Positions 6,822 through 52,603 of a stretch of 64,000 bases of DNA are shown here, one piece after another (position 1 is the stretch's first letter; each line of letters opens with the position of its first letter). The position numbers and the translations under genes are program-made. Source of the stretch: an uncultured Gammaproteobacteria bacterium (GTDB taxonomy: Bacteria; Patescibacteriota; Microgenomatia; Levybacterales; GWA1-39-11); assembly GCA_964452165.1 (NCBI GenBank), contig CAYVKP010000001.1:490729-554728 (forward strand), given 5' to 3'. The notes under the pieces are model-generated. The model was not told where the DNA came from, did no database searches, and saw only the letters and a list, made by a program, of their open reading frames with translations.

Positions 6822-7433
6822 ATGTCAAGAAATGCCAGGGAACTTATTAAGATTATAAATAGGAAAGGCTTCCTCGAGACTTTAGTTGAGGCGTTCAGAT
6901 TGTTTGCGCAAAAAACCACATCACTTATTAAGATTTCCATCTTAAGGTTGAGAGGGTATAATATCGATTATTCGGTTCTACTAAGGGGTAACAACAATTT
7001 TTTCCAAAGCGTAAAAAATTCCATTACTATTTCAGGAAAAGTAACTCTTGGTAGGGCCACTAGGATGACTGCGGGAGGGTCAGGGAAAGTTCACATAGGT
7101 GAAAATGTATTAGTCGACGACTCTACTTTCATAATGGCTCATGAGAAAATCGAAATAGGAAAAAATACTACGATTGCCGCTTTTTGTTTTATTACAGACT
7201 TCAATCATAGCTATAAAAACGGCAGTGTTTCGGTTCTTGAGCAGGGGTACGAAACAAAGCCGATTTCAATTGGCAAGAATGTTTGGATTGGCACACACTG
7301 TATTGTTCTCCCTGGAATAAAAATTGGCGATGGGTCAATTATAGGCGCTGGATCAGTTGTTACTCACGATGTGCCCGAAAACTCCATTGCAGTTGGAAAC
7401 CCTGCAAGAATCGTCAAGAAGATTAAAAGATGA
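6822..7433 (+). CDS. Hexapeptide-repeat (LbH) acetyltransferase, sugar O-acetyltransferase-like
   Basis: C-terminal [46 protein letters not shown] shows typical left-handed beta-helix hexapeptide repeats. Confidence 0.65.
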
Positions 7434-9703
7434 AAAGATTAAATAGTCGAGGAAAAGTTCACGTTTCTAAAATTGTCCACTTTATTAATATCGCAAACAT
7501 TTTTGTTGTAGGGTTGCTGATATTATTGCCCTTTTTTTTGTTTGATGGAAGACTATTTCTTGGGGGAGATGATACCAGGTTTTACATGGTCTACCCGAGG
7601 GAAATACTTAACAGCTTCACTCTCTATTCCTGGAATAATATTTCCTCTTTGCCTTATTACATACCAAATCATTATTGGTTGCCCTTCGTTTTTGTGGGGT
7701 CGGTGATCGACAGTATATTAAATTCCAAATTAATTCTGTCCTATTTTTCCTTTTCCGCAGTTCTTGTTTTGGGATTTATTTATTTTCAGAAATTTATTCG
7801 TCAGTTGATAGGGGAAGAGTATTCAATCGCTTTTGTGACAGGATTGATTTATCTTCTTTCTCCAATAACTCTCGTCAGTCTATCTTTCTTCCTGGCCCCT
7901 GTTTGGCTAATCGCATTGGTTCCTATTGTTGCGTATTACTACATATGTTACTTGAGGTGGGGAAAAATCGTTGACATTATAAAAGTTGTAGCATGGTCAA
8001 TTTTACTATCCTTTGTATTTTTTTCTATACCTTGGATATTAGGTCTACTTTTACCTTTATTTTTAGGAATGATCTTTTTTTTGATTTTCGTCGAAAATCC
8101 CTTCAAGAGTTTACTTAAGAGATCTCTTATTTTCGTTTTCTTTATTATTTCGAGTCAATTATTTTGGTTAATCCCATTTGCCGCCTCTCTAGTCTCGGGT
8201 GGACAGACTAGTTTGGGACAGAAGATCGTCTCAACGGATCTTGCGACCAGTTACAGAAATACAATCCTTAGCACTGCAACAGATAATATCGTATACCCGT
8301 TACTTACCATGTATCACAGAAGAATGGTTTTCGAATTTGGGTGGCATCTAAAAGATATATTTCTTAATTATTTCGATCACGTTTTACCTTTGAGCGCCAT
8401 TTTTCCAGTTGTTTTACTCTTGGGAATTATCAAATACAATCGAGTTTTTGAAATCGGCAAGAAAAAAATGTTTATTTTTCTTCTTGCATCTTTTATTAGT
8501 GTCCTTTATTTATGTACGGTAAATGTCGGGTTTTTGAAAAATGTATTTATACTTTTGGGTTATCTTCCGGGCTTTGCTGTTTTAAGAAACTTCACCGATA
8601 AGTTTGCTTTGGCTTTTATATTTATTTACGCCACGCTACTTTCCTTTTGTTTTTTAGCTATTAAAAAATCCTACAAGTTGTACGCCATAACATTATTAGC
8701 AACGCTTGCTGTCGTTTTGATAAATTTTGTGCCTGTTAAGAGAATGATTAGTGCCCCTTTATGGAAAACTAACAACACTTACACTACTGTTAATTTACCC
8801 AAGGAATATATATCTTTCATTAAGAAGACAAAGCTGACTATTCCAAGCACTACCAATATAATTGCATTACCTCAAAATATCACGGCATACTCAATAATCA
8901 CCGAAGATAACGGCAGAAATGCTTATGTTGGTACATCTCCGCTCAAGTTTTTTACAGGCATAAATGATCTGACCGGTACTGATTCTTATCCAAGTTTTAT
9001 ATCTCAAGAGATTCAGCGGTTGATTGTCAAAAGAGACTATAGTAATCTTCTTACTTTATTCACCCAAATCAATGCGGGGTACTTGATGGTTACCAACAAT
9101 GCACCTCGCGAAGTTAAGGATTCTTACCTTTATGACAGAGATTACTTGAAGTTCCAAGATAAGCAGCTTATAGACTCTATCGTAGAACGCGAGGTGGTCC
9201 GTAGCAGCAAGGGCAACTATGTAATCTACAAACTCAAAAACTCTTCAAGTATTATATCTTCCGGAGCAAGACTTGAATACAAGAAAATTAGCCCGGTGGA
9301 CTATGAAATTAAATTATCGAGCTTATCAGGTAATAAGGATCTGTTTTTTAAAGAGACGTACCATCGGGGTTGGAGTTTATATGTAGCTAAAAAAAATCAA
9401 AACCATGAATCTTCAGATTTTAAATTCGATTTTTTACTTCCGCTTAGTAAGCCTGTTTTTACGGCCTCACATGTTGGACAATTGCCTTATGGTAACAAGT
9501 GGGTGATCAACGGAGATGTGATAAAAAATGATTTCGCTAAAGACTATTATACGGAAAACAAGGACGGGTCAATTGATGTTAAGCTTCACTTGTATTTTGC
9601 TCCGCAATTCAATTTCTATATAGGATCCATTATGAGCTTCATATTTATGATAGTTGGTGGTTTATATTTATGGAAGCTAGACAAGAAACAAAATGAGAAA
9701 TAA
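7430..9703 (+). CDS. Polytopic membrane protein, GT-C-like glycosyltransferase candidate (paralog A1; YfhO/AftD-like architecture)
   Basis: The N-terminal half (~430 aa) has more than 10 predicted TM helices, with an [11 protein letters not shown] acidic motif after TM1 as in GT-C enzymes. A soluble C-terminal domain ends in a TM ([21 protein letters not shown]). It is paralogous to 11907..14216. Confidence 0.45.
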
Positions 9704-11906: not shown

Positions 11907-14216
11907 ATGAATTTATTAAGAAAGAACTCTTTTATAGTTATAAACATTGTTGTAGTTTTGCTCTTATTTTCTCTCCCTTATTATTTGTTTGGTGGGAAGT
12001 TATTTCTGGGAGGTGACGATACAAGACTTTTTTATATTTATCCTAAGGATTATTTAGTCAACGTCCCGTTTTTTTCTTGGACCAATTTATCTTCAATAGG
12101 TTGGAGCTTTTCATACCAAACATTTATTCCGTTCGTTTCCGTGTGGGTCATACTTTCGGAAGTTATAAGAAATAAAATTATTTTAGGATATTTCTCTTTC
12201 TCTCTACCTTTGGTTTTAGGGTTCGTTTTTTTCCAAGAGTTTACACGCGAGCTAATAATTGAGAACAAAGATAAATATAAACCGGAGATATTGGCGGGCG
12301 CTCTTTTTTATACTCTCTCCCCTATAATAATAAATAATCATTTCCTTAATCCTCTCATACCCATATGGCTAATCGGTTTGATTCCCGCACTTTGTTGTTA
12401 CTTTTTAAGATTTCTGAAAACGGGCGAGTACAAAAATGTTTTCATATCAATTATTCTTACTACTATTTTTTCATTCGGCTCTCACAATATTCCTTGGCTC
12501 GCGGGGTTTCTGATGCCACTCGTTCTTTCTCTCGTGGTGTGTTCAGTTCTATTCAGTAAACACGACGTTTACACTTTCATAAAAAGGATTGCCATTTTTT
12601 CTACAATTACTTTGGTCTCTCAGGCCTTTTGGTTATTTGGCTTCGTAATTACGTTTATAAATCCGAGTAGCAGCAACGTTGCCTCAAAGGTTGTCTCGGG
12701 AAGCTTTGTTAATGATTTTGCAAGGTCGGTTGAAGCGACATCTGTCGGGACAATTATTTATCCTCTCTTAAATCTTTACCAAAGACAAATCGCTTTCGAC
12801 TTCGGTTGGAATTTGAAGAATATTTACCAATTATTCTATGACAAAATCTATTTCTTAAATGTCATCTATATAGCAATCCTGTTTTCAGGAATTTTAAATC
12901 TTGCAAAGAATACGAGTAGGCTGGAGCGGAAAATATTCTTAATTCTTCTATCTGCGTTCATTATTGCTCTCTTCTTGTTTACAATAAATATTGGCTCGCT
13001 TTTTAATTTTTACATTTGGCTCGGACACATTCCGGGGTTTGTATTATTCAGAAATCCGTATGATAAATTTGCTCTCGGATATGGACTCATCTATTCACTT
13101 TTAATCACGTACTGCCTTATTATATTGAACCGCAAGTATAAGAAGATAAACTTCACAGGGCTTTCAATTGTCGTAGCATTTTTTGTAGTCGTCATGATCA
13201 ACGCTTTGCCTACAAGGGCAATAATCGTCTCTCCGTTATGGACCACTAAGAATATTTATAAAAACATTATTATTCCTAAAGAGTATTTTGATTTTATGAC
13301 ACAAATAAAGACTAAGATTTCACCCTCGAATAATATACTGAGTTTACCTTACGGTTTGTCGTTATACACAATCATAAAAGATCAAAGTTCAAATAACGTT
13401 TATGCCGGCGTCTCGCCCGTCGTAATGTTTAGTGGCGTAAACGATATCTCAGGATACTTATCATTTAATTACACCCCCGAAGCAACTGCGTTCGATCGCG
13501 CCATAGTGGGCAGAGACTACAACGGCATGAATAATATTCTATATACGCACAACATAAATTATGTATTTTTAACAAAAAATATACCCGAGGAAGTGAAAAA
13601 ATCCTATCTTTTCGTGCCTGAAGTTATGAAAAATCAGGATGGGGAATTTCTCTCCAAAATAACTTCAAAAAAAATCATAACAAGCACTGAGGGCAATTAC
13701 GAACTTTATGAAGCAAAAAAAAGAAACCTTCAAATCGCTTCGGATAACTCTCTTTTTAAAAGAGTAAGTAGGGTAAGATACGAGATTTTAATAAAAAATA
13801 TTAAGAGTAGGCAAGAGTTGGATTTCAATGATACCTTCCATGAGGGTTGGAAACTATATTTACAGCGTGGGGCGTTCAACTGCCAAGATCCTAAGAAAAT
13901 AACCGAACTTAAGACAGTTGAATGTCAACCTGATCCTAAAATGTTTGAGCCAAGTGACTTGACCTATCTATGGCAAAAAAGTGTTTTTGATAAGTCTCAC
14001 AGTATTAAGAATGGCTTTTCCAATAAGTGGGTGATTGACCCCGTTTTTATTAAGAGAAGCGTAGACAAAAAACTCTATACGTTGAATAAGGATGGTTCGA
14101 TTGATCTACGACTGACTTTGTACTTTGAACCTCAAGAGTATTTTTACATAGGTGGTCTGATCAGTATTTTGACTATTGGGTCACTATTTATTTTTGTTGT
14201 TTTTAGACGAAAATGA
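11907..14216 (+). CDS. Polytopic membrane protein, GT-C-like glycosyltransferase candidate (paralog A2)
   Basis: [15 protein letters not shown] after TM1. It aligns along its length with 7430..9703 (GYFSFS..LVLGF.FFQ.F.R.LI; C-terminal DGSIDLRLTLYFEPQEYFYIGG + TM). Confidence 0.45.
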   Translation: MNLLRKNSFIVINIVVVLLLFSLPYYLFGGKLFLGGDDTRLFYIYPKDYLVNVPFFSWTNLSSIGWSFSYQTFIPFVSVWVILSEVIRNKIILGYFSFSLPLVLGFVFFQEFTRELIIENKDKYKPEILAGALFYTLSPIIINNHFLNPLIPIWLIGLIPALCCYFLRFLKTGEYKNVFISIILTTIFSFGSHNIPWLAGFLMPLVLSLVVCSVLFSKHDVYTFIKRIAIFSTITLVSQAFWLFGFVITFINPSSSNVASKVVSGSFVNDFARSVEATSVGTIIYPLLNLYQRQIAFDFGWNLKNIYQLFYDKIYFLNVIYIAILFSGILNLAKNTSRLERKIFLILLSAFIIALFLFTINIGSLFNFYIWLGHIPGFVLFRNPYDKFALGYGLIYSLLITYCLIILNRKYKKINFTGLSIVVAFFVVVMINALPTRAIIVSPLWTTKNIYKNIIIPKEYFDFMTQIKTKISPSNNILSLPYGLSLYTIIKDQSSNNVYAGVSPVVMFSGVNDISGYLSFNYTPEATAFDRAIVGRDYNGMNNILYTHNINYVFLTKNIPEEVKKSYLFVPEVMKNQDGEFLSKITSKKIITSTEGNYELYEAKKRNLQIASDNSLFKRVSRVRYEILIKNIKSRQELDFNDTFHEGWKLYLQRGAFNCQDPKKITELKTVECQPDPKMFEPSDLTYLWQKSVFDKSHSIKNGFSNKWVIDPVFIKRSVDKKLYTLNKDGSIDLRLTLYFEPQEYFYIGGLISILTIGSLFIFVVFRRK

Positions 14217-15199: not shown

Positions 15200-15854
15200 A
15201 AATACCTACGGCTATGGGCTATTTTTGCAAAAACAAAACCAAGTTTTCAGGGAGGACTTGTATAAAAGGTTGGAAGTTAAAAAAACTTTCGCAAATAAAA
15301 AAATTTTAGACTTAGGCTGTGGTGACGGTATAGACTCGGTGTTTTTGTCAAAATCTGCAAAGCTTGTAATAGGAGTCGATGTGATTGCCTACAGGCAGTG
15401 GCCATCATTAACAAATAAAAGATTAAGGTTTACTAAGGCTAATTCTACAAACCTTCCTTTTAGAGATAACACCTTCGACGGAGTTTACTTGAAAGATATG
15501 TTGCATCACATTAAGAACGTAGAAAAAACCCTGGAGGAGATCAAGCGTGTGACAAAGGCCGGTGGTGACATTGTAATACTTGAAGCAAATAGATATAACC
15601 CGATCTTCTATTTTTACGCTACCAAAATTAGGGGTCACGACCATTTTTCGCAAGGAGAGTTCAAAAATTTAATCAAAAGTAAATTTCCAAAGACTCGCTT
15701 CATTCATCTGGAGGCTTACCCACCTTTTCGTTTGCCAATGATCGTCTATAAGCTTGTTCAGAAGCTTGAGAACGGAATTAACAAGATACATCTTCTTGAT
15801 CCCATTTTTTCATACAACTTGGCAAAAATAAAAAACACTAAACAAAAGACTTGA
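15162..15854 (+). CDS. Class I SAM-dependent methyltransferase
   Basis: ILDLGCGDGIDSVFL (motif I), DGVYLKDMLHHI and TKAGGDIVILE. The true start may be the internal Met at ~15180. Confidence 0.6.
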   Translation: MKRGAIMRKRSLRNTYGYGLFLQKQNQVFREDLYKRLEVKKTFANKKILDLGCGDGIDSVFLSKSAKLVIGVDVIAYRQWPSLTNKRLRFTKANSTNLPFRDNTFDGVYLKDMLHHIKNVEKTLEEIKRVTKAGGDIVILEANRYNPIFYFYATKIRGHDHFSQGEFKNLIKSKFPKTRFIHLEAYPPFRLPMIVYKLVQKLENGINKIHLLDPIFSYNLAKIKNTKQKT

Positions 15855-17700
15855 GGAGACTTGCCCGATTTTTTACCAGGTATAAAATCCAGAAGGAAAA
15901 AGTGGAAATGGAGACTATTAGACCGTAATAAAAGGGCGTGGAGGAATAAATAAATTTATAAACATGATTGCCCGGGACTGTTTCGACTTCCAAAAATCTT
16001 CCGACTAATAATTCCTGTTTTTTACCGTCCACAAACGCGTTCCAGCCGGGATATTTACTTTCAAGCAGTAATAAGTGTTTTTTACCCTCTGAATTGGCAG
16101 ATAGAGTTATCTCATTTACTGAAAAAACGGGCCTTTGAGGTTCTTTATCAATAGCTGCAAATGGCGTTGCCCCAGAATCCTTATAAAGAATGATATTCTT
16201 ATCGAATTCTCTTATTTTTTCAAGCTCCGCGTTTTCAATATTAGTTTTGCTAATGACAAATCCGGGTTTTAAGTCTACGTAAGATTTTTCTTCCCTAAAA
16301 TTATATTTTTCAGCCAAGCTTCCTTTCAGTATTAATCCATAGTTAGATTGCAGCATAAGTAGATGATGGAGATAGGCCTGGTCTTGGGGAATATCGCCTT
16401 GTGATGTGGCGTGAACGGTATAGTAGCTATTTGGGTTATTGTTTGCAATCCACACAAGTGGAGCTGTCGTCTCTTGGTTAATATTGCCGAATTCTTTTGT
16501 TGCTAAGATTTTTTGTGAGAAGGCGAATACCACAACTAGATTTAAAATCAAAACTACAATTGCAATAATCTTTCTTTTCCATGCATCAACTAACAATCCG
16601 AAAGAAAGCAGAATTATTATTCCCCAAAGCGCAAGTATTCTACTTGGAACATGGAAGTACTGCAGAGTACTGATGCTTGAAATAATGTAATAGAGCGGGT
16701 TGATAGGTGCATCGGGCGTTGAAAGCAGCAAAAATAAAATTGTTAGAACGATAAGAATTGGTATTTTTCCACTGGATTTTGTAAGTGAGGATTTGGCCAG
16801 GAAGTATAATCCCAGAATAGAAAACGGACCAATAAAAGAAAGACTTTCCCACCAACCGAATCCCGTCGATATAGCGTTTTTACTTACAATATTCAGATCG
16901 AACGGAAAAAATAAATTATATATAATGCTGAAGAAATTCAATCCCCCATTGAAAGGCTCCTTCGTTTTGGATATATAATTTTGCAGCTCTATCATCGGAA
17001 AGATTTTGATAGAGGAGAATAATAAGAAGAAGATGACGGTTAACATCAATAATAAAGAAACCTTTTTGTCCTTGAGCAGGTAATATAAAAAAATTGCAGC
17101 TGTGCCGTACAAACAATAAAGGCAATTGTATATATCGCCCGTGAAAAGAATTAATGAAAGAGTGATTGCGGCAAGTCCGGCCCACAATATTTTTCTGTCT
17201 TGAGATATTTTCACAATACAAAATAGAAACAAAGGGAGGAAGCCAAACGACACTACTTTTTCAATATGACCCGCAGCAACTCTTGACGCCAAATATGTAC
17301 CGCTTGCGTAAGTCATGGATATTAATGTAGAAACGGTTGGCGAAGTTTTATAGAGTCTTGCAAGACAAAACATTGATAAACACGCCAACAACACGGAAAA
17401 AAAATAAGTGACTTTTATGGCAGTGGAGTAATCAAAGATAAGAATAGGAATACTGATAACCGGATTGTATATTCCATACAACGGGTCGGCGATGGCAGGA
17501 ATTCCCTGATCAATATAGGGGTTCCACTGAGGAAACTTATGGTGCTTAATAACTGATTCTTTAAAGTGCAGAAGTGGTACAATGTTGCCATTGAGGTCAT
17601 TGCCGTTTATGACGGTGGGGCTTAGAATAAATTGTAATAAGACAAGCCAACTGAAGATAAAAAATAGAATAAAAACTTTAAGATTCATGAATAATTTCAA
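15838..17700 (-). CDS. Polytopic membrane protein, GT-C-like (paralog A3, minus strand)
   Basis: More than 12 predicted TM helices with an acidic motif after TM1. The C-terminal soluble domain plus terminal TM (VYKFIYSSTPFYYGLIVSISTF) resembles the tails of the A1/A2 paralogs. Confidence 0.4.
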   Translation of the reverse strand: MKLFMNLKVFILFFIFSWLVLLQFILSPTVINGNDLNGNIVPLLHFKESVIKHHKFPQWNPYIDQGIPAIADPLYGIYNPVISIPILIFDYSTAIKVTYFFSVLLACLSMFCLARLYKTSPTVSTLISMTYASGTYLASRVAAGHIEKVVSFGFLPLFLFCIVKISQDRKILWAGLAAITLSLILFTGDIYNCLYCLYGTAAIFLYYLLKDKKVSLLLMLTVIFFLLFSSIKIFPMIELQNYISKTKEPFNGGLNFFSIIYNLFFPFDLNIVSKNAISTGFGWWESLSFIGPFSILGLYFLAKSSLTKSSGKIPILIVLTILFLLLSTPDAPINPLYYIISSISTLQYFHVPSRILALWGIIILLSFGLLVDAWKRKIIAIVVLILNLVVVFAFSQKILATKEFGNINQETTAPLVWIANNNPNSYYTVHATSQGDIPQDQAYLHHLLMLQSNYGLILKGSLAEKYNFREEKSYVDLKPGFVISKTNIENAELEKIREFDKNIILYKDSGATPFAAIDKEPQRPVFSVNEITLSANSEGKKHLLLLESKYPGWNAFVDGKKQELLVGRFLEVETVPGNHVYKFIYSSTPFYYGLIVSISTFSFWILYLVKNRASLLKSFV

Positions 17701-17721: not shown

Positions 17722-19773
17722 ATGATAAGAAGACCTTCATTTTTATTGAATTTATTTAAAGACAGAAGCCGTTTTTTTACAGGTTTAATACTCTTCATAA
17801 TCGCATTAATATTTAGGGGGTGGTTCCACTTGTTGCCGTTATCAACGGGGGATTGGAGCTATAAGTTTCCCCAGACAATTTTAGATTTTAAATTATATCC
17901 GTATGCTTGGGGCCCAACTTTTAATAATGGCATGGGTGGTAGTACTATTTTTCTTCTTCCTCTTAACACTTTCTTTGTAGGTTCTGCGTCAATTCTATTC
18001 AGCTTTTTCCACCTGCCATGGGTTTTGATTGAGAAGTTGGTTTGGTTTTGGCCATATCTTATTATTGCCGTTTCCGGTTCATACTTTCTGTTTAGAAGAT
18101 TTGTAATAAATGATAATATGCTCGCTCTTGTTTCCTCTCTAATCTTTACCACAAACACTTATTCGCTCATGGTCACAGGAGGAGGGCAAATTGGGGTGGG
18201 AGCAGCTTATGCTCTTATTCCGTGGGTGTTTTGGGGTTTTCTCAATACCTTGGAGAGTACGCGTAAACACGGATTGATCACTAAATCTTCTATTGTCGCG
18301 GGTCTGATATTATCGCTTCAATTGGTGTTTGATTTGCGAATCGTTTACGTTACGCTCGTATCACTTTCCATATACTATTTGTTTTATGTTTTATCTTCCG
18401 GATTCTTTGAGTCGATCAAGAAAAGCATTGTGCCCTTTTTCATCGTTCCTGGCGTAATAACTTTATTCCTCCATTTTTTCTGGATACTTCCGCTCATATT
18501 GGCAGGGCAAAATCCGGTGAGCGCACTGGGCGCAGCCTACACCGGTTCTGGGATAGTAGACTTTTTGAGTTTTGCAAAACTTGAGAATACTATTTCCCTG
18601 CTTCACCCAAATTGGCCCGATAATTTGTTTGGGAAAGCCTATTTTATGAGACCCGAATTTTTAATAGTTCCTATCTTGGGGTTCGGGTCTCTGCTCTTTT
18701 CGCCAAAAAATAAGAAGGCCAGTTTGATTTTAGTTTTTTGTACTCTCTCTCTTTTGGGAGCTTTTCTTTCAAAGGGTACAAATGATCCTTTCGGTAGCAT
18801 CTATAAATTGGCTTTTGAGAAGGTTCCCGGTTTTATCATGTTCCGCGATTCAACTAAATGGTACGGTATGACGGCGTTATCTTTCTCGCTGCTCATTCCT
18901 TATTTCTTGTTTAATCTTTCGGAGGTAGTCAAAAGAAAGATAAAAAAAATAGACGTGCTTAGTATATTGGTTTTAATATTTTTAGCGCTTTGGAGTTTCA
19001 CTATAAGGCAGGCTGTCATGGGAGAAGTTAAGGGAACATTTGCACCTCAAAAATCACCTCAACAGTACGCACAATTAACAAACTTTTTGGACTCACAAAA
19101 AGAATTCTTCAGAGCACTTTGGGTTCCATCTTTTCATCAGTATACTTATATGTCGTCCAGTCATCCGGCTATTCCTGCCGGAGATTTTCTAAATGCATAT
19201 TCAGCAAAAACAATTGCCCAAAAAATCCGAAAAAGCCCGAATTTGCTTGCGGATTCGAGCATAAAGTATTTAATTGTTCCGGACGACGTTTACGGTAAGA
19301 TATTTACGGACGACAGAAAATATAGTGACAAGCTTTATCAGGAGCAGGTCAGTCTCTTAAATGGCATAAGTGGCTTAAGAAAAGTAGCCAAGTTTGACAA
19401 TATTGTTGTTTATGAAAACGCCAGTTTCAAAGACCATTTTTGGAGTCGTACTAATAACCTTAAAATAAAATATAGGTCAATCACCCCAACCATGTATCAG
19501 GTTTGGGTAGATGATGCTAAAAAAGGAGACACGCTGGTTTTTTCTGAAGCATTTGACAAGAATTGGGTAGCCGCTGTTTCAGGTGTTAATATTTCGAGCT
19601 TGAAGTACGAGAGTTCACTCAACAGCTTTGTTTTGCCAAGAGATGGGAATTTTGTTTTAACGATTGCATACAAACCGCAAAGGTTCGTTGACATAGGGTT
19701 GATTGTGAGCGCGGTAAGTCTTTTTGTAGTGTTAATGGTTTTAACCATGAATAAGTCTAAGATTAAAAAATGA
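17722..19773 (+). CDS. Polytopic membrane protein, GT-C-like (paralog A4)
   Basis: Multi-TM N-terminal half with STGDW after TM1. The C-terminal domain ends ...TIAYKPQRFVDIGLIVSAVSLFVV (TM), the same tail pattern as A1/A2. Confidence 0.4.
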   Translation: MIRRPSFLLNLFKDRSRFFTGLILFIIALIFRGWFHLLPLSTGDWSYKFPQTILDFKLYPYAWGPTFNNGMGGSTIFLLPLNTFFVGSASILFSFFHLPWVLIEKLVWFWPYLIIAVSGSYFLFRRFVINDNMLALVSSLIFTTNTYSLMVTGGGQIGVGAAYALIPWVFWGFLNTLESTRKHGLITKSSIVAGLILSLQLVFDLRIVYVTLVSLSIYYLFYVLSSGFFESIKKSIVPFFIVPGVITLFLHFFWILPLILAGQNPVSALGAAYTGSGIVDFLSFAKLENTISLLHPNWPDNLFGKAYFMRPEFLIVPILGFGSLLFSPKNKKASLILVFCTLSLLGAFLSKGTNDPFGSIYKLAFEKVPGFIMFRDSTKWYGMTALSFSLLIPYFLFNLSEVVKRKIKKIDVLSILVLIFLALWSFTIRQAVMGEVKGTFAPQKSPQQYAQLTNFLDSQKEFFRALWVPSFHQYTYMSSSHPAIPAGDFLNAYSAKTIAQKIRKSPNLLADSSIKYLIVPDDVYGKIFTDDRKYSDKLYQEQVSLLNGISGLRKVAKFDNIVVYENASFKDHFWSRTNNLKIKYRSITPTMYQVWVDDAKKGDTLVFSEAFDKNWVAAVSGVNISSLKYESSLNSFVLPRDGNFVLTIAYKPQRFVDIGLIVSAVSLFVVLMVLTMNKSKIKK

Positions 19774-49068: not shown

Positions 49069-49352
49069 AAAGAATAATCAAATTATCAATACTTATTTTA
49101 GTCGTTGTGGCGATTGTTTTGCAGTGTGTAAGTATTTATTTGTCAAACACAAATGCAATAACAAGCGTTGATGCGACCAAACTTTCGGCTCAAATAGAAA
49201 ACTTGAGCGAAGAGAATATGCAGCTTGAGACCAAGGTTTTGGCCTTATCGTCAATGACAAATGTTGCATCAAGAGCAGCTGTTATGGGATATTCCGATAG
49301 TCGTGATATAGTCTCGCTTTACGATCCGGTACAAGTGGCTTCCGCGCGATGA
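49065..49352 (+). CDS. ftsL: Cell division protein FtsL-like (single TM + coiled coil)
   Basis: 95 aa, N-terminal TM, leucine-rich heptads. The position between rsmH and ftsI is conserved. Confidence 0.5.
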   Translation: MKRIIKLSILILVVVAIVLQCVSIYLSNTNAITSVDATKLSAQIENLSEENMQLETKVLALSSMTNVASRAAVMGYSDSRDIVSLYDPVQVASAR

Positions 49353-51037
49353 GAAAATCAGAAGCAGCAAGATTTGGAATAGTTGGAGCAGTAGTCTTAA
49401 TTTTATACCTCGTCCTGACAGTAAGACTTTTTTATTGGCAAACAGTTCGCGCTGAGCATCTCTCGGATCTTGGAAAGCAACAAAGCTCTGAGACCTTAAA
49501 TGTGCCTGCAATTAGAGGTAAAATCCTATCAAGCGATAATTTTCCTCTTGCCGCAAACACTATCTCCTATATGTTGTATTCAAATCCCAAGCTAATTGAA
49601 GACAAGAAATACGTAGCTGACAAAATTGCTCCAATACTAAAGGAAGATTCGGCTTCGATTTCAGCACTCCTGTCACGAAATCTTTTCTGGGTTAAGCTAT
49701 CCCAGAACCTTGATGATACGGCAAAAAAACAGATAGACGATCTCAGGCTTAAGGGCTTGGGGTTTGAGCAAGAATATTCAAGGTTTTATCCTGAGGCCTC
49801 AATGGCAGCGCATTTAATTGGTTTTTTGGGTAGAGATGAAAATGGAGCTAGGAAAGGTTACTTTGGAGTAGAGGGGCAGTACAATGATCAGCTTTCAGGC
49901 CGAGACGGAGCAAGACATGCTATTCGCGATGCCTTGGGAAATCAAATACTAAATGACATTAGGGAAGATAAGAAAATTGACGGGAGGAATATTAGATTGA
50001 CAATAGATCGCTCCGTTCAATTCATTGTCGATCAGAAATTGTCCGATGGAGTCACGCGTTATAACGCAGATGGCGGAAGCGCCATTGTCATGGACTCGAA
50101 AACTGGTCAAATTTTGGCAATGGCATCTTATCCCGATTTTGATCCCAACAAATATTACGAACAAAATCCGGACATATATACAAATCCCGTACTTTCAGAG
50201 CTTTACGAACCGGGTTCAACTTTCAAAGTTTTGGTTATGGCATCGGCGTTAGACCAGAATCTTGTTACTCCTAATACCAGGTGTGATATTTGTGCGTCTT
50301 CTGTTCAGGTAGGTGAATATAAAATAAAAACCTGGAATGATCAATATTTTCCAAATACCACAATGGAACAGGTTATAGTCCACTCAGACAATACCGGCAT
50401 GGTATACGTTGGGAGAAAACTGGGCGTTTCAAGAATGGTTGATTATTTAACGCGTTTCGGTTTTGGGACGCCGACGGGTGTTGATCTACAGGGTGAGGCA
50501 ACGGGCATTGTCCGCGACAAAGATTCTTGGCATGAGATTGATTTGGCAACCTCTTCTTTCGGCCAGGGCATATCGGTTACTCCTATTCAGCTTATTACGG
50601 CAGTCAATTCAATTGCTAACAAAGGTCAACTAATGGCCCCTTACGTTGTTTCCCAAATCCTGACGGACGATGGAAGAACAATAGACATTAAACCAAAAAC
50701 TGAAACCCGTACGGTATCCGAGGCGGCAGCTTTGACAACCGCATCGATGATGGTTGATGCCGTTGAAAACGGTGAAGCAAAATGGACAAAAATTAATAAC
50801 TATCAAGTTGCCGGAAAGACCGGTACCGCTCAGATTCCGGTCGCGGGCCATTATGACCCAAATCAAACAGTAGCCTCATTCGTGGGTTTTTTTCCGGCGT
50901 ATAATCCCAAAGTCACCATGCTTGTGCTTCTGAATAGACCAAAGACCTCCATCTATGGGGCCGAAACAGCTGCGCCTATTTTTTTCTCGATTGCTCGTGA
51001 TCTCATAAAATACTATAATTTACCTTCCGATAAATAA
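49349..51037 (+). CDS. ftsI: Peptidoglycan D,D-transpeptidase FtsI / class B PBP
   Basis: N-terminal TM and PBP dimerisation domain. The transpeptidase motifs SxxK (STFK), SxN (SDN) and KTGT (KTGTAQ) are present. Confidence 0.85.
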   Translation: MRKSEAARFGIVGAVVLILYLVLTVRLFYWQTVRAEHLSDLGKQQSSETLNVPAIRGKILSSDNFPLAANTISYMLYSNPKLIEDKKYVADKIAPILKEDSASISALLSRNLFWVKLSQNLDDTAKKQIDDLRLKGLGFEQEYSRFYPEASMAAHLIGFLGRDENGARKGYFGVEGQYNDQLSGRDGARHAIRDALGNQILNDIREDKKIDGRNIRLTIDRSVQFIVDQKLSDGVTRYNADGGSAIVMDSKTGQILAMASYPDFDPNKYYEQNPDIYTNPVLSELYEPGSTFKVLVMASALDQNLVTPNTRCDICASSVQVGEYKIKTWNDQYFPNTTMEQVIVHSDNTGMVYVGRKLGVSRMVDYLTRFGFGTPTGVDLQGEATGIVRDKDSWHEIDLATSSFGQGISVTPIQLITAVNSIANKGQLMAPYVVSQILTDDGRTIDIKPKTETRTVSEAAALTTASMMVDAVENGEAKWTKINNYQVAGKTGTAQIPVAGHYDPNQTVASFVGFFPAYNPKVTMLVLLNRPKTSIYGAETAAPIFFSIARDLIKYYNLPSDK

Positions 51038-51038
51038 G

Positions 51039-51161
51039 ATGAAGCACACGCGTAAAAAGATTTACTTTATGGGGCGGACCGATACCGCAAAGCGGGAGAG
51101 GGAGCCCGGCTGCGAGCGAAGCGAGACAGCGGGGGAGGGAGAGGGGTTTATCGCAAAATGA
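51039..51161 (+). other. Upstream mini-ORF (40 codons) made of a duplicated murC 5' end plus a GC/G-rich insert; its TGA overlaps the murC ATG
   Basis: ATGAAGCACACGCGTAAAAAGATTTACTTTATGGGG (51039..51074) is an imperfect copy of the murC start ATGAAACTAAAGTATAAAAAGATTTACTTTATGGGA (51158..51193). The intervening ~83 bp is GC-rich with runs of G (GCGGGAGAGGGAG...GCGGGGGAGGGAGAGGGG). Confidence 0.5.
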
Positions 51162-52603
51162 AACTAAAGTATAAAAAGATTTACTTTATGGGAATAAAAG
51201 GTGTTGGAATGGCGACGCTTGCCGTAATGTGTAAGCAGGCCGGTTTTATAGTTGGCGGATCAGATATAGATCAGGAATTTATAACTGATAAGATTCTTAA
51301 AGACGCCGGAATTGAGGTAAAAATAGGCTTTAAGCAAGACAATGTGAGAGATTTTTTTGGCTCTAGCAATGCGGATTGCCTTTTTGTCGCAACAGGGGCT
51401 CACAGTGGATTTGATAATGAAGAAGCGAGGGAAGCAAAAAACCTGGGAATCAGAGTGATCTCACACGGTGAGGCAGTTGGCTACTTTATGAATGGTGAGC
51501 CCTTCGGCCGCTCTGACACTGAAGGAGTGTCAATTGCTGGAGCACACGGTAAAACGACGATATCGGGTATGGTAGCGACAGTTTTATCTGGGGCAAATCT
51601 TGACCCAAGTTTTACGGTTGGTACAAGCGAGATATTTCCCTTAGGGCCGGCCGGTCATTACGGACTCGGCCGTTATTTTGTCGCAGAAGCCGATGAGTAT
51701 CTATCCGAGTCAAATCATGACAGAACAGCAAAATTCCTACATCAAAAGCCCACAGCCTTAATCATAAACAATATAGATTTTGATCACCCGGATTTTTACA
51801 AAGATATAGAGGCTGTAGAAGAGGCGTATTTGGAATTTGCGCAAAACGTACCAGCAAATGGATTAATAGTTGCTAATGGTGATGATACCCACACTAAGAA
51901 TGTAATCACAAAGCTCACAACGGGTGTTCGCGTGGTAACGTTCGGTGCAGGCGAAAGTAATGACTTTGTAGTCTCGGGTTTTGTCCAGGAAGGTCCCATG
52001 TCTCACTTCACAGTAAAAAACAAAGATGTATTGATTGGGAGGTTCTCCCTCTCCGTCCCAGGCTACCATAATGCTAAAAACGCAACAGCCGTGATTGCGC
52101 TTCTGATTGAGCTTGGATTAGGAGTCGATAAGATAGGAAAAAATCTGCAAAACTTCCAAGGGACAAAAAGAAGAATGGAAATTGTGGGGAAAACCCAACA
52201 AGGACAAACCATAATAGATGACTATGCTCACCACCCTGAGGAGATCAGTAAAACGCTTTCAGCTTTAAAACTCGAGTATCCCGGGAGCAAAATTGTTACC
52301 GTCTTTCAATTTCATACATTTTCAAGAACCAAAGCTTTATTTGATAGTTTTGTCTCAAGTTTTTCCCAAGCCTCAAAAATTATTATCGTTCCAACCTTCG
52401 CCTCACAAAGAGACGAGGCGGCAGAGGAGAACTACGACAAAAAGATGGTTGATGCTCTTGTTGGAATAGGAAAAGAGGCTATACTTATGCCTGCTGATAG
52501 TGTGGTAGAATACGTAAACGCAAATCTAAACTCGCCCAATGTTATCATTTTGACGATGGGTGCAGGAGACGTTTATAGGATAGGATACAAGCTAAAAATC
52601 TAA
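51158..52603 (+). CDS. murC: UDP-N-acetylmuramate--L-alanine ligase
   Basis: KKIYFMGIKGVGMATLA, IAGAHGKTT, GLGRYFVAEADE, GTKRRME and DDYAHHPEE parallel the E. coli MurC motifs (IHFVGIGGAGM, IAGTHGKTT, GHGRYLIAEADE, GTGRRF, DDYGHHPTE). Confidence 0.85.
   Translation: MKLKYKKIYFMGIKGVGMATLAVMCKQAGFIVGGSDIDQEFITDKILKDAGIEVKIGFKQDNVRDFFGSSNADCLFVATGAHSGFDNEEAREAKNLGIRVISHGEAVGYFMNGEPFGRSDTEGVSIAGAHGKTTISGMVATVLSGANLDPSFTVGTSEIFPLGPAGHYGLGRYFVAEADEYLSESNHDRTAKFLHQKPTALIINNIDFDHPDFYKDIEAVEEAYLEFAQNVPANGLIVANGDDTHTKNVITKLTTGVRVVTFGAGESNDFVVSGFVQEGPMSHFTVKNKDVLIGRFSLSVPGYHNAKNATAVIALLIELGLGVDKIGKNLQNFQGTKRRMEIVGKTQQGQTIIDDYAHHPEEISKTLSALKLEYPGSKIVTVFQFHTFSRTKALFDSFVSSFSQASKIIIVPTFASQRDEAAEENYDKKMVDALVGIGKEAILMPADSVVEYVNANLNSPNVIILTMGAGDVYRIGYKLKI

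What the first reader, a model, noticed from the sequence alone, without database searches (positions are those of the whole stretch)
51039..51193. Duplicated murC start codon region flanking a G-rich insert, creating a coupled upstream mini-ORF
The first 36 nt of murC are duplicated 119 bp upstream, with a 21/21 identical core AAAAAGATTTACTTTATGGG. Between the copies lies an ~83-bp segment that is strikingly GC- and G-run-rich for this genome (…GCGGGAGAGGGAGCCCGGCTGCGAGCGAAGCGAGACAGCGGGGGAGGGAGAGGGG…). The upstream copy opens a 40-codon ORF, MKHTRKKIYFMGRTDTAKREREPGCERSETAGEGEGFIAK. It starts 1 nt after the ftsI stop and ends in an ATGA overlap with the real murC start. Possible origins are a small mobile or foreign insert with target duplication, or a regulatory leader peptide with a G-quadruplex-prone RNA controlling murC translation.
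Basis: seen in the sequence. Interest (0 to 1): 0.55.

Follow-up and report, generated by a model that had tools for sequence, protein, structure and literature searches.

The report
Small mobile hairpin insert before murC
The G-rich stretch in front of murC is one copy of a small, folded, GC-rich insertion element found in many Patescibacteria genomes; here, as at other essential genes and tRNA genes, it lies between a cut-off old gene start and a complete gene with a second start, so the gene stays intact.

Summary
murC's first 36 nt recur 119 nt upstream with a 21-nt identical core, around the most GC-rich stretch of the window. It is not a one-off duplication, an assembly error or a murC-specific leader.

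The same layout (old murC start, homologous insert, second murC start) occurs in an unrelated Patescibacteria genome. The nearest sampled relatives of both genomes lack it.

The insert belongs to a family I call E, about 54-70 nt, with 19 loci collected. It has two helices supported by compensatory changes and an 18-nt cap containing the GCGAAGC mini-hairpin.

- Nine copies lie in or next to a displaced 5' fragment of a gene, just upstream of an intact copy: murC twice, ribosomal protein L1, a GlmS-like gene and five tRNAs.
- Five copies are in-frame inside ORFs. One has an "empty" allele in a close relative.

Best reading: a small non-autonomous mobile element whose insertion leaves the old gene start behind and supplies a new one. 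This is how dusA- and tRNA-targeting genomic islands behave, but here the unit is only 119 nt and carries no recombinase.

The enzyme and the exact pathway are unknown. The G-quadruplex and coupled-uORF features are not conserved.

The parts
49349..51037 (+). ftsI-type penicillin-binding protein gene. It is the upstream neighbour in the mraZ-rsmH-ftsL-ftsI-murC-murA cluster.
   Evidence: ORF. Pfam Transpeptidase 6e-74 and PBP_dimer 1e-19.
51039..51073 (+). Displaced 5' fragment of murC (copy A), coding MKHTRKKIYFMG. It starts 1 nt after the ftsI stop.
   Evidence: Direct repeat with the murC start. KKIYFMG is the conserved N-terminal motif of the MurC homologues.
51039..51161 (+). 40-codon ORF made of copy A read through the element. 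Its TGA overlaps the murC ATG (ATGA).
   Evidence: No Pfam hit. Not conserved in L001.
51053..51073 (+). Upstream copy of the 21-nt identical core TAAAAAGATTTACTTTATGGG.
51072..51136 (+). Element E, the structured GC-rich insertion element.
   Evidence: Covariance-model hit at 51071-51136, 63 bits, E 2e-11, the only hit in the window. Homologous to the L001 insert.
51072..51107 (+). Helix P1: GGGC at 51072-51075 pairs with GCCC at 51104-51107. It encloses a small hairpin, CCGC-AAA-GCGG, at 51085-51095.
   Evidence: Pairs show compensatory changes across the family: GGGC/GCCC, GGAC/GTCC, GAAC/GTTC, GAGC/GCTC, GGTC/GACC. The inner hairpin is predicted and is replaced by GGTCGCC-TAA-GGCGACC in L001.
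51109..51130 (+). Helix P2 with the 18-nt cap TGCGAGCGAAGCGAGACA at 51111-51128. The cap contains GCGAAGC with a GAA loop at 51118-51120.
   Evidence: The closing pairs covary: C-G to G-C and C-G to T-A. The cap was the pattern used to collect the family. GCGAAGC is a known very stable DNA mini-hairpin (PMC13037366).
51137..51157 (+). Tail and spacer GGGAGAGGGGTTTATCGCAAA. It holds a purine-rich Shine-Dalgarno-like run 11-20 nt before the murC ATG.
   Evidence: Sequence. Partly alignable with L001 (GGTTT..AT, AAAC.AA).
51158..51192 (+). Copy B, the 5' end of the functional murC (MKLKYKKIYFMG). The 21-nt core is at 51172-51192.
51158..52603 (+). murC (UDP-N-acetylmuramate--L-alanine ligase), intact, 481 codons.
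   Evidence: Pfam Mur_ligase, Mur_ligase_M and Mur_ligase_C. 7559 homologues at E<=1e-30; those that carry a source name are called MurC or 'Mur ligase family protein'.

Best explanation
**What it is.** The G-rich segment is a copy of a small non-autonomous insertion element, which I call E. It is about 54-70 nt and 62-74% GC, in genomes of about 40% GC. It folds as a single strand into two short helices, one of them capped by an 18-nt module that contains the GCGAAGC mini-hairpin.

**What happened at murC.** A unit of 119 nt (E, a short spacer and a fresh copy of the first 35 nt of murC) entered the gene right after the conserved ...TTTATGGG of codon 12. The original gene start (copy A) was pushed upstream and is now a dead fragment. 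The unit's own copy (copy B) is joined in frame to the rest of murC. The enzyme therefore stays complete and the insertion is tolerated in an essential gene.

**Closest logic.** This is how genomic islands behave when they integrate into tRNA genes or into the 5' end of dusA and re-supply the piece they displace. Here the unit is miniature and encodes nothing.

**Steps that are shown.**
- E is a conserved structured family.
- E is an insertion: a filled and an empty allele exist.
- Its distribution at murC is patchy across the MurC tree.
- E is repeatedly associated with a displaced 5' fragment followed by an intact gene.

**Steps that are inferred.**
- The 119-nt unit moves as one piece.
- A trans-acting enzyme recognises the folded single-stranded DNA. 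Candidates are an HUH/Y1-type transposase or a tyrosine recombinase acting on a folded strand.
- In this genome murC is now translated by re-initiation after the 40-codon relic ORF (the ATGA overlap), helped by the purine-rich tail.
For: **Second murC example.**
- A genome-wide scan with a 22-mer from the insert hit exactly one other genome, a Patescibacteria MAG.
- The hit is at the same place, with ftsI stop, ATG..YRKIYFMG, homologous insert, then MIRKIYFMGIKGVGM.
- The two units align through the element and partly through the spacer and copy B.

**Patchy distribution.**
- The two MurC proteins lie in different clades at 57% identity.
- The nearest sampled relatives lack the insert: L005 at 66% identity and L006 for the window, L127 at 80% identity for L001.
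- L002, L003 and L004 also lack it.
- None of these six relatives has a fragment of its own murC start in the spacer.

**Family and structure.**
- 19 loci were collected.
- All four variable base pairs show compensatory changes: 13 double-change cells, 99% of cells paired, 0 of 500 shuffles as good, slid controls 25-48% paired.
- The L001 minimum-energy fold reproduces both helices.

**E is an insertion.** The def gene in L083 carries E in frame. The def of a relative 89% identical in protein (P0122, locus L132) has 5 nt (TAAGG) where L083 has 56 nt, a net gain of 51 nt.

**Recurrent layout.**
- Nine of 19 copies have a displaced 5' fragment followed by an intact gene: murC twice, ribosomal protein L1 (MGKIR), a GlmS-like gene (MCGIFG), tRNA-Leu, tRNA-Thr, tRNA-Arg and tRNA-Trp twice.
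- Seven of these are individually significant against shuffles.
- In the window, the only such fragment in 64 kb touches the only E copy.

**The two copies have separate histories.**
- Eight of nine differences in conserved codons are synonymous third-position changes.
- In L105 and L059 the intact tRNA has a different acceptor stem from the fragment.

**Precedent.** Islands that replace the 5' end of dusA are flanked by 21-bp repeats (PMC4482086). Islands in tRNA genes regenerate the target and leave a displaced fragment (PMC4383910).
Against: - No recombinase or transposase is linked to E. None lies in the 119-nt unit. None was seen in the 18 of the window's 55 ORFs of 90 aa or more that were scanned with Pfam, plus the 153-aa MraZ ORF and the 40-codon upstream ORF. 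A tblastn with an IS200 TnpA sequence recalled from memory found nothing in 698 kb of held sequence, which is only a weak negative.
- In four tRNA cases the fragment continues for 12-20 nt after E. There E lies inside the displaced piece rather than at its end. This fits a later insertion into an already dead fragment at least as well.
- In L105 the whole tRNA, not just its 5' part, differs from the fragment.
- Primary insertions seem to remove 1-5 target nt: T20 in three tRNA fragments and TAAGG in def. Neither classical transposases nor integrases do this.
- Only two murC examples exist.
Cap invariance is therefore by construction and the context counts are a small, truncated sample.
- Nearest-neighbour folding energies are not exceptional, with z-scores between -1.5 and +1.5.
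Confidence: 0.6

Rival explanations
1. Safe harbour. Displaced 5' gene fragments arise first, by some other gene-replacement process such as an integrase-type event at a tRNA anticodon loop or recombination with foreign DNA. E, which prefers ...GG|T sites, inserts later. It persists there only because these compact genomes offer almost no other neutral DNA.
For: - In L029, L059, L115 and L116, E sits after G18G19 of the D-loop and the fragment continues beyond it to the anticodon region.
- In L059 the old tRNA-Trp is complete but split a second time by a separate insert carrying a whole different tRNA-Trp.
- E does insert on its own without any duplication, as in def, radA and other ORFs.
- Intergenic space in the window is tiny.
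Against: - In all four protein-gene cases the fragment ends exactly at the 5' end of E.
- Six murC relatives without E have no fragment of their own murC start, while both with a fragment have E. A Fisher test by hand gives about 0.04.
- The two murC-associated elements share a sub-variant (G-C instead of C-G in P2, a long inner hairpin, a GGTTT tail) and partly alignable spacers. This fits a murC-specific unit travelling as a whole.
Confidence: 0.2
2. Scar of a larger integrative island. A normal integrase-encoding island integrated into the 5' end of murC, bringing a replacement 5' end as dusA islands do. It later lost almost all of its DNA, leaving attL- and attR-proximal sequence.
For: - The layout of displaced 5' end, 21-nt direct repeats and a second 5' end joined to the gene matches dusA-type islands and tRNA islands.
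- A relative (L003) has a 1.6-kb foreign segment at the same ftsI-murC junction. A 13-nt match to the element lies next to its left end.
Against: - Nine independent loci would all have to be reduced to E plus 7-55 nt.
- E also occurs as a clean 51-nt net in-frame insertion with no repeats.
- No integrase remnant is present in the window unit.
Confidence: 0.1
3. Cis-regulatory leader. The upstream ORF and a structured or G-quadruplex RNA control murC translation.
For: - In this genome the 40-codon ORF starts 1 nt after the ftsI stop and overlaps the murC start as ATGA. Ribosome hand-over is therefore plausible.
- Five runs of three or more G lie between 51094 and 51146.
Against: - There is no canonical G4 motif. 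Four G-runs can only be joined with loops of 20 nt or more.
- In L001 the G-runs are gone, the upstream ORF ends after 16 codons and murC starts 75 nt later.
- No Rfam family matches.
- The RNA fold z-scores are -1.8 and -1.5.
- The same element sits inside ORFs in both orientations and in dead tRNA fragments.
- No promoter or terminator consensus is present.
Confidence: 0.05
4. Chance local duplication with filler DNA, or an assembly artefact at a contig join.
For: Both examples come from metagenome-assembled genomes: L001 is titled as a MAG, and for the window's contig this is presumed from its lineage and source. No reads could be inspected. The exact murC protein is not indexed in the contig collection.
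Against: - An independent assembly from another project has the same layout with a diverged but homologous insert.
- The insert's helices are kept by compensatory changes across 18 sequences.
- The two repeat copies differ in a codon-aware way.
Confidence: 0.03

Closest known systems
Genomic islands that integrate into the 5' end of dusA, or into tRNA/tmRNA genes, and re-supply the displaced gene part (PMC4482086; Islander, PMC4383910)
   Same: A displaced gene fragment, then the inserted DNA, then a regenerated intact gene whose end comes from the insert. Short semi-conserved direct repeats flank the insert: 21 bp in dusA islands, a 21-nt identical core here. tRNA genes and a conserved codon stretch of a housekeeping gene serve as targets.
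   Different: Those islands are kilobases long and encode their own tyrosine integrase. The unit here is 119 nt and encodes nothing. tRNA islands usually replace the 3' part, whereas here it is always the 5' part. The conserved structured hairpin module has no counterpart in them.
Rickettsia palindromic elements (RPEs), as summarised in PMC10969869
   Same: Small non-coding repeats found in frame inside unrelated housekeeping ORFs, and therefore translated. From my own knowledge, RPEs also occur in RNA genes. The mobilising enzyme is unknown for both.
   Different: RPEs are about 100-150 bp and belong to Rickettsia. Sequence similarity to RPEs was not compared here. RPEs are not reported to leave displaced 5' gene fragments with re-supplied starts.
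REP sequences with RAYT/TnpA-REP, and IS200/IS605-derived hairpin elements moved as single-stranded DNA (PMC3333891, PMC6006769, PMC5027513)
   Same: Short imperfect hairpins. Insertion next to a short specific sequence (...GG, often [AG]TGG; REPs carry GT[AG]G 0-2 nt 5' of the hairpin). No target duplication at the one primary insertion that could be checked. Strong bias to one orientation relative to genes: 12 co-oriented against 2. GNA-triloop mini-hairpins favour folding of single-stranded DNA.
   Different: No Y1/HUH gene was found. Copy number is low, at one per 64 kb. IS200/IS605 elements do not delete target bases, and they do not carry copies of the target gene.
Classical prokaryotic MITEs (PMC10969869)
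   Same: Small, non-autonomous, patchily distributed, structured.
   Different: There are no terminal inverted repeats of the usual kind and no target-site duplication at the def insertion.

Membership tests
Gene-restoring integrative islands (dusA-type, tRNA-type) | A displaced fragment of the target gene plus a regenerated intact gene, flanking the inserted DNA | tested here: met
   Copy A at 51039-51073, E plus spacer, then copy B joined to intact murC. The same layout occurs at 8 further loci.
Gene-restoring integrative islands (dusA-type, tRNA-type) | Short direct repeats (attL/attR core) at both junctions | tested here: met
   21-nt identical core in the window. 18 of 21 identical in L001.
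Gene-restoring integrative islands (dusA-type, tRNA-type) | An integrase gene carried by the inserted DNA | tested here: not met
   The inserted DNA is 98 nt between the copies. Its only ORF is the 40-codon read-through with no Pfam hit.
Gene-restoring integrative islands (dusA-type, tRNA-type) | Excision that restores the original gene (circular form, empty site) | not testable with these tools
   This needs reads or PCR from the source community. The closest available relative is only 66% identical in MurC.
MITE | Terminal inverted repeats | tested here: not met
   The two termini of E, GGGGCGGAC at the 5' end and GGGGYGGA at the 3' end, are in direct orientation. The supported helices are internal.
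MITE | Target-site duplication of fixed short length | tested here: not met
   def filled versus empty: GG|E(56 nt)|GC against GG|TAAGG|GC. There is no duplication and 5 nt are replaced.
REP / RAYT | GT[AG]G tetranucleotide 0-2 nt 5' of a hairpin (PMC6006769) | tested here: inconclusive
   The left flank always ends in G, and in GG at 17 of 18 loci. It is GTGG in 2 of 18, ATGG in 6, and otherwise ACGG, TTGG, TTAG and similar.
REP / RAYT | High copy number in intergenic regions of one genome, with a RAYT gene present | tested here: not met
   One copy in 64 kb and one per contig elsewhere. At least 14 of 19 copies lie in genes or gene fragments. No TnpA-like hit was found, though the probe was recalled from memory. 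The rest of the 650-kb genome could not be read.
IS200/IS605-derived hairpin element | Sub-terminal imperfect hairpins, no target duplication, insertion 3' of a short specific sequence | tested here: inconclusive
   Hairpins with a bulged base are supported. There is no duplication at def. The target ends in ...GG. However, target bases are lost, and no covariation between guide and target could be seen.
IS200/IS605-derived hairpin element | Mobilisation by a Y1 transposase through a single-stranded circle | not testable with these tools
   This needs the full genomes or biochemistry.
Rickettsia-palindromic-element-like in-frame repeats | In-frame insertion in unrelated housekeeping ORFs that remain open | tested here: met
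   def: Pep_deformylase matched across the insert, with a net 17-codon gain over the relative. radA: between the Zn-ribbon and the ATPase domain, in reverse orientation. Also a DnaQ-like exonuclease fusion and a 483-aa ORF.
Riboswitch / leader-peptide / uORF regulator of murC | Conservation of the ORF, its coupling to the gene, or a family-specific RNA fold upstream of the same gene | tested here: not met
   In L001 the ORF is 16 codons and is uncoupled. No Rfam match. The element is not restricted to 5' leaders.
G-quadruplex element | Four runs of at least 3 G separated by loops of 1-7 nt, conserved in homologues | tested here: not met
   No canonical motif anywhere in the window. Only a variant with loops of 20 nt or more is possible. 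The G-runs are absent from L001 and from most family members.

The most novel reading that the evidence does not exclude
Patescibacteria carry an undescribed class of miniature 'self-restoring' mobile cassettes. Each would be a 54-70-nt folded hairpin module joined to a copy of the first few codons, or the 5' half, of an essential gene or tRNA. Such a cassette inserts at a conserved ...GG site inside that same gene in other lineages. It displaces the resident 5' end and substitutes its own. It would therefore spread horizontally through essential genes at little cost, and without encoding any protein. The shared 18-nt cap, also seen at the ends of other palindromic repeat families, would mark a wider superfamily recognised by one still unidentified single-strand DNA enzyme.
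Probability: 0.35. Interest if true: 0.8.

Novelty: new variant of a known kind. Interest (0 to 1): 0.6.

Why it matters
**Annotation.** Gene callers started both murC genes that carry the unit at Met11, MGIKGVGM. A few relatives without the unit were called there too, so the link to the unit is not established. Dead tRNA and gene fragments could be mistaken for pseudogenes or assembly errors. In-frame GC-rich inserts alter protein sequences of core enzymes such as def and radA.

**Biology.** The result points to active, horizontally moving selfish DNA in the smallest and most compact bacterial genomes known. These genomes have almost no neutral space. Re-supplying the piece of an essential gene that the insert displaces would allow insertion even there.

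**A concrete search.** If the miniature cassette reading holds, gene-restoring integration, known so far for integrase-bearing islands, extends to a protein-free unit of about 120 nt. It also gives a defined hairpin and target with which to look for the responsible single-strand DNA enzyme.

Tried and rejected
- **Rfam.** Searched on the whole window, on the 311-nt region at permissive threshold, on L001, on five other E loci and on the L003 insert. Nothing relevant.
- **Thermodynamic folding.** RNA and DNA folds of the region and of five elements gave z-scores between -1.8 and +1.5, so energies alone say nothing.
- **Exact-protein look-ups.** Window murC, the uORF product and P0001 are not on record.
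- **Viral contigs, plasmids and phages.** No family member; only the bare 18-mer in four viral contigs.
- **Protein search with concatenated six-frame translations of E.** Only 99 candidates and one hit, the def protein itself. This approach is too insensitive.
- **Literature.** The sequence and its translated peptides were not found. No paper on MITEs in the Candidate Phyla Radiation describes this.
- **tblastn with an IS200 TnpA recalled from memory.** No hit in 698 kb.
- **Neighbour ORFs of four intergenic E copies.** No recombinase next to E. One IS30-like transposase, judged by eye, lies 1.4 kb away in L062.
- **My early impression that the 18-mer is 'nearly always' a hairpin loop.** This was too strong. 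Only 16 of 86 distinct contexts have a flanking inverted repeat of 6 nt or more, against 5 of 86 when shuffled.
- **An alternative register for helix P1** (GGCGG pairing with CCGCC). Rejected because the varying columns covary only in the P1 register used.
- **In-frame fusion of copy A to murC.** Rejected because the spacing of 119 is not a multiple of 3, and no start codon lies in the murC frame upstream of 51158.
Full report
**1.

The window carries the usual division and cell-wall cluster: mraZ (47736), rsmH (48190), an ftsL-like ORF (49065), an ftsI-type PBP (49349-51037), a Mur ligase (51158-52603), murA (52611) and a GlmU-like gene (53951). The Mur ligase has thousands of homologues; those that carry a source name are called MurC or 'Mur ligase family protein', from Patescibacteria, Levybacteria and similar lineages.

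Between ftsI and murC lie 120 nt.
- A 40-codon ORF (51039-51161) starts 1 nt after the ftsI stop. It ends with a TGA that overlaps the murC ATG.
- Its first 35 nt repeat the start of murC: 38 nt at 82% identity, spacing 119, with a 21-nt identical core.
- The 84 nt between the copies are 67% GC and 45% G. They contain the GC maximum of the whole 64 kb, almost 5 sd above the mean.
- No other copy of the insert exists in the window.
- No other gene in the window has a copy of its own start upstream.

**2. It is not unique to this genome.**

A scan of 185,579 species-representative genomes with a 22-mer from the insert gave a single hit, in another Patescibacteria MAG (L001). The hit lies at the same spot. 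The order is ftsI stop, a 48-nt spacer, ATG AGT GTG TAT AGA AAA ATA TAT TTT ATG GGT, a homologous insert, then ATG ATA AGG AAG ATA TAC TTT ATG GGT ATT AAA GGC, which is the real murC.

The N-terminal motif [KR]KIYFMG-IKGVGM is conserved in MurC of this group, and both insertions follow the same Gly codon.

The two MurC proteins are only 57% identical and sit in different clades of a 60-sequence tree.
- The window's nearest sampled relatives (L005 at 66% identity, L006) have plain AT-rich spacers and a single murC start.
- So do L001's nearest sampled relative (L127, 80% identity) and three further relatives.
- None of these six has a fragment of its own murC start in the spacer.

So the unit was either gained twice or lost many times. 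An assembly artefact or a private duplication is excluded.

**3. The insert belongs to a structured family.**

Eighteen of these loci (17 distinct sequences, since L036 and L038 are identical) share the rest of the element with the window and L001. The general form is:

GG[GA][GAT]C-GGAC/GCAG, then a variable mini-hairpin, then GAG[CTA][CT]CG[CG]C, then the 18-mer, then [GA][GC]GG[CT]GGA.

I cut out the constant parts, joined them with a fixed linker and counted pairs for two helices (alignment A2).
- All four pairs that vary at all change on both sides. P1 shows G-C to A-U and U-A. The closing pairs of P2 show C-G to G-C and C-G to U-A.
- 13 cells carry double changes and 99% of cells are paired.
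- None of 500 shuffles matches this. Sliding the partner by 1-3 columns drops pairing to 25-48%.
- The window and L001 share the G-C variant in P2. In P1 the window has G-C and L001 has U-A.

The cap is invariant only because it was the search pattern.

The cap contains GCGAAGC flanked by potential tandem G-A pairs. The variable region usually holds ACGAAGT, GCGTAGC, GCGAAGC, CCAAAGG or similar. These are C-G-closed three-base loops of the kind known to make unusually stable DNA mini-hairpins (PMC13037366).

Standard energy models do not rate the fold as special. No Rfam family matches.

A covariance model built from 17 members finds one copy in the window (51071-51136, 63 bits) and one per contig elsewhere.

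**4. Where the family sits.**

*(a) Displaced 5' fragment, then an intact gene: nine loci.*
- murC, twice.
- Ribosomal protein L1: ATGGGAAAAATTAG|E|..ATGGGTAAGATAAG (L1 domain confirmed).
- A GlmS-like gene: ATGTGTAGAATTTTTGG|E|..ATGTGCGGAATCTTTGG. The gene identity is judged by eye.
- tRNA-Leu, tRNA-Thr, tRNA-Arg and tRNA-Trp twice. The intact tRNA is recognised by ARAGORN just downstream in each case.
- Seven of the nine flanking repeats beat at least 98.5% of shuffles, five of them all 200.

*(b) In frame inside ORFs: five loci.*
- def (Pep_deformylase matched across the insert).
- radA in two organisms, in reverse orientation, between the zinc ribbon and the ATPase domain.
- A DnaQ-like exonuclease fusion.
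- A 483-aa ORF.

*(c) Intergenic or unclear: five loci.*

Other regularities:
- The left flank always ends in G, and in GG at 17 of 18 loci (ATGG in 6 of 18).
- Orientation is the same as the host gene in 12 cases against 2.
- In the window 52 of 55 ORFs are on the + strand and G exceeds C on that strand around the element. The G-rich strand of E is therefore probably on the lagging-strand template. That is the strand used by single-strand transposons (PMC5027513). This last step is inference.

**5. E is an insertion.**

The def protein with E (205 aa) has a relative 89% identical that is 16 residues shorter, with KG in place of ADERSEGARLRAKRDKGGR. The names of the def homologues place this host in Patescibacteria/Levybacteria too.

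At the DNA level the filled allele reads ..AAAGTGG|56 nt|GCAAAAAAAAAGAG. The empty one reads ..AAGGTCGG|TAAGG|GCAAAAAAAAAGAA. That is a net 51 nt, in frame, with no duplicated target and five target bases replaced.

The three tRNA fragments that can be compared with an intact copy in the same locus show the same thing on a smaller scale: GG-T-A becomes GG-E-A. I have no explanation for the lost bases.

**6. What the duplication means.**

It is not a target-site duplication.
- The primary insertion in def has none.
- In L001, the L1 gene and the GlmS-like gene, the two copies differ at nine positions in conserved codons. Eight of these are synonymous third-position changes.
- Under a simple model in which the dead copy decays at all positions, I estimate by hand that this has a probability of about 0.01. 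The sample is small.
- In L105 and L059 the fragment and the intact tRNA have different acceptor stems. The intact gene's 3' strand matches its own 5' strand, not that of the fragment.

So the two copies have separate histories as working genes.

[quoted passage not shown] It is also known from islands that integrate into the 5' end of dusA, which replace that 5' end and are flanked by 21-bp repeats (PMC4482086).

The difference is scale. Here the inserted DNA between the copies is 98 nt and encodes no protein.

Several points favour a 119-nt cassette (E, spacer and 35 nt of murC) that moves as a whole and is tolerated because it re-supplies what it displaces.
- The two murC units share a sub-variant of E.
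- They share alignable stretches in the spacer and the start of copy B.
- The only fragment in the window touches the only E.
- Fragments are absent from E-free relatives.

The main rival is that fragments arise otherwise and E merely survives in them. That rival is favoured by the four tRNA cases in which the fragment continues past E. I cannot exclude it.

**7. How it probably works here, and what is not known.**

*Shown:* murC is intact and in its normal operon position. The old start now opens a 40-codon ORF through the element.

*Inferred:*
- Ribosomes leaving ftsI re-initiate on the old start, terminate at the ATGA overlap and re-initiate on murC.
- The purine-rich tail (GGGAGAGGGG, 11 nt before the ATG) may help as a weak Shine-Dalgarno site.
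- This arrangement is particular to this genome. In L001 the upstream ORF ends inside the element and murC starts 75 nt later.

There is no canonical G4 motif, and the G-runs are not conserved.

The enzyme is unknown.
- The triloop hairpins, the lack of duplication, the short specific flank and the orientation bias point to a single-strand DNA mechanism. This would be HUH/Y1-like, or a tyrosine recombinase acting on a folded strand.
- No such gene was found in the sequence I could read.
- E is absent from plasmid, phage and viral collections.

**8. Limits.**
- The family was collected with an exact 18-mer from a truncated scan.
- Only two murC cases exist.
- The pair counts rest on hand-cut segments.
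- The source genome outside the window could not be read.
- The literature search covers open-access papers only.

**9. Verdict.**

The finding is real and more interesting than a local duplication. It is a copy of an apparently undescribed small structured insertion element of Patescibacteria, caught in a gene-restoring configuration at an essential gene. The kind is known: small non-autonomous mobile DNA and gene-restoring integration. The combination and the scale are new.

Noticed in passing
L003:879-2462 (relative; MurC P0053): A 1.6-kb higher-GC segment lies between ftsI and murC in this relative. It carries minus-strand hypothetical ORFs of 185 aa and 83 aa (the latter membrane-like). 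Next to its left end are CTCGCTCGCAGCC, the reverse complement of a 13-nt stretch of the window element (GGCTGCGAGCGAG), and a GGCGGA motif. No Rfam hit.
   Followed up: partly
L004:2404-2481 (relative; MurC P0039): The ftsI-murC spacer holds a different GC-rich hairpin, GAGATTGCTTCCCCCGCCGTGGCGGGGTCGCAATGAC. It is of the GTCATTGCGA...GCAATC type, which also occurs in tandem in L016.
   Followed up: no
L087, L099, L106, L114, L008, L067 (metagenome loci): The same 18-nt cap occurs at both ends, in inverted orientation, of palindromic units of about 150-250 bp. It also occurs in a roughly 100-nt repeat (..CACATGGGCTAAAA[cap]GCCCATGTG..) present on 26 contigs. The cap may therefore mark the ends of several repeat families in diverse uncultivated bacteria.
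   Followed up: partly
L059 (oriented), about 90-210 nt downstream of the element: The old tRNA-Trp is split a second time, in its anticodon loop. The insert is TCCGCCGACGCATTT, then a complete but different tRNA-Trp, then AAGCTTTGGCGGACAGGC. The old 3' half follows. This is a tRNA-carrying insert with GGCGGA-type inverted ends, sitting inside the tRNA it replaces.
   Followed up: partly
L110, radA ORF (minus strand of the oriented locus): This RadA carries a second in-frame GC-rich insertion of about 50 residues (GSPRALNNSTLARGPVASFPPASTPSSLASLRTKVRAVGSPSTGATPRS). It is absent from the L072 RadA, which suggests other in-frame insertion elements exist in these genomes.
   Followed up: no
L029, L115, L116 (tRNA fragments) and L083 versus L132 (def): Primary insertions of the element replace target bases. 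T20 of the D-loop is lost in three different tRNA fragments (GG-T-A becomes GG-E-A), and TAAGG is lost in def. This is unexplained by standard transposition or integration.
   Followed up: partly
L002:2361-2473 (relative; MurC P0013): The ftsI-murC spacer contains CACGCGTAAAAA, a 12-nt exact match to the displaced murC fragment of the window (51047-51058). None of 500 shuffles scored as well. It could be a decayed fragment or chance.
   Followed up: partly
window:51188 and L001 (gene calls P0001, P0023): Public gene calls for both murC genes that carry the unit start at Met11 (MGIKGVGM...) rather than at the full-length start. Some relatives without the unit (P0006, P0013, P0039, P0053) were called there too.
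   Followed up: partly
window:7430-19773: Several long ORFs have no Pfam match at E<=1e-5: 7430-9703 (757 aa), 11907-14216 (769 aa), 15838-17700 (620 aa, minus strand) and 17722-19773 (683 aa). They lie inside a cluster of glycosyltransferase, sugar-epimerase and methyltransferase genes spanning 261-23077.
   Followed up: no
L062:3678-4772 (minus strand): A 364-aa ORF looks like an IS30-family DDE transposase, judged by eye from its motifs and not tested with Pfam. It lies 1.4 kb from an intergenic copy of the element.
   Followed up: no
L036 (oriented), gene downstream of rplK: Ribosomal protein L1 here has an N-terminal extension of about 90 residues (MGKIRVRTLGIDEAEKKQK...) before the L1 domain. 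The element and the displaced fragment sit at the start of this extension.
   Followed up: no
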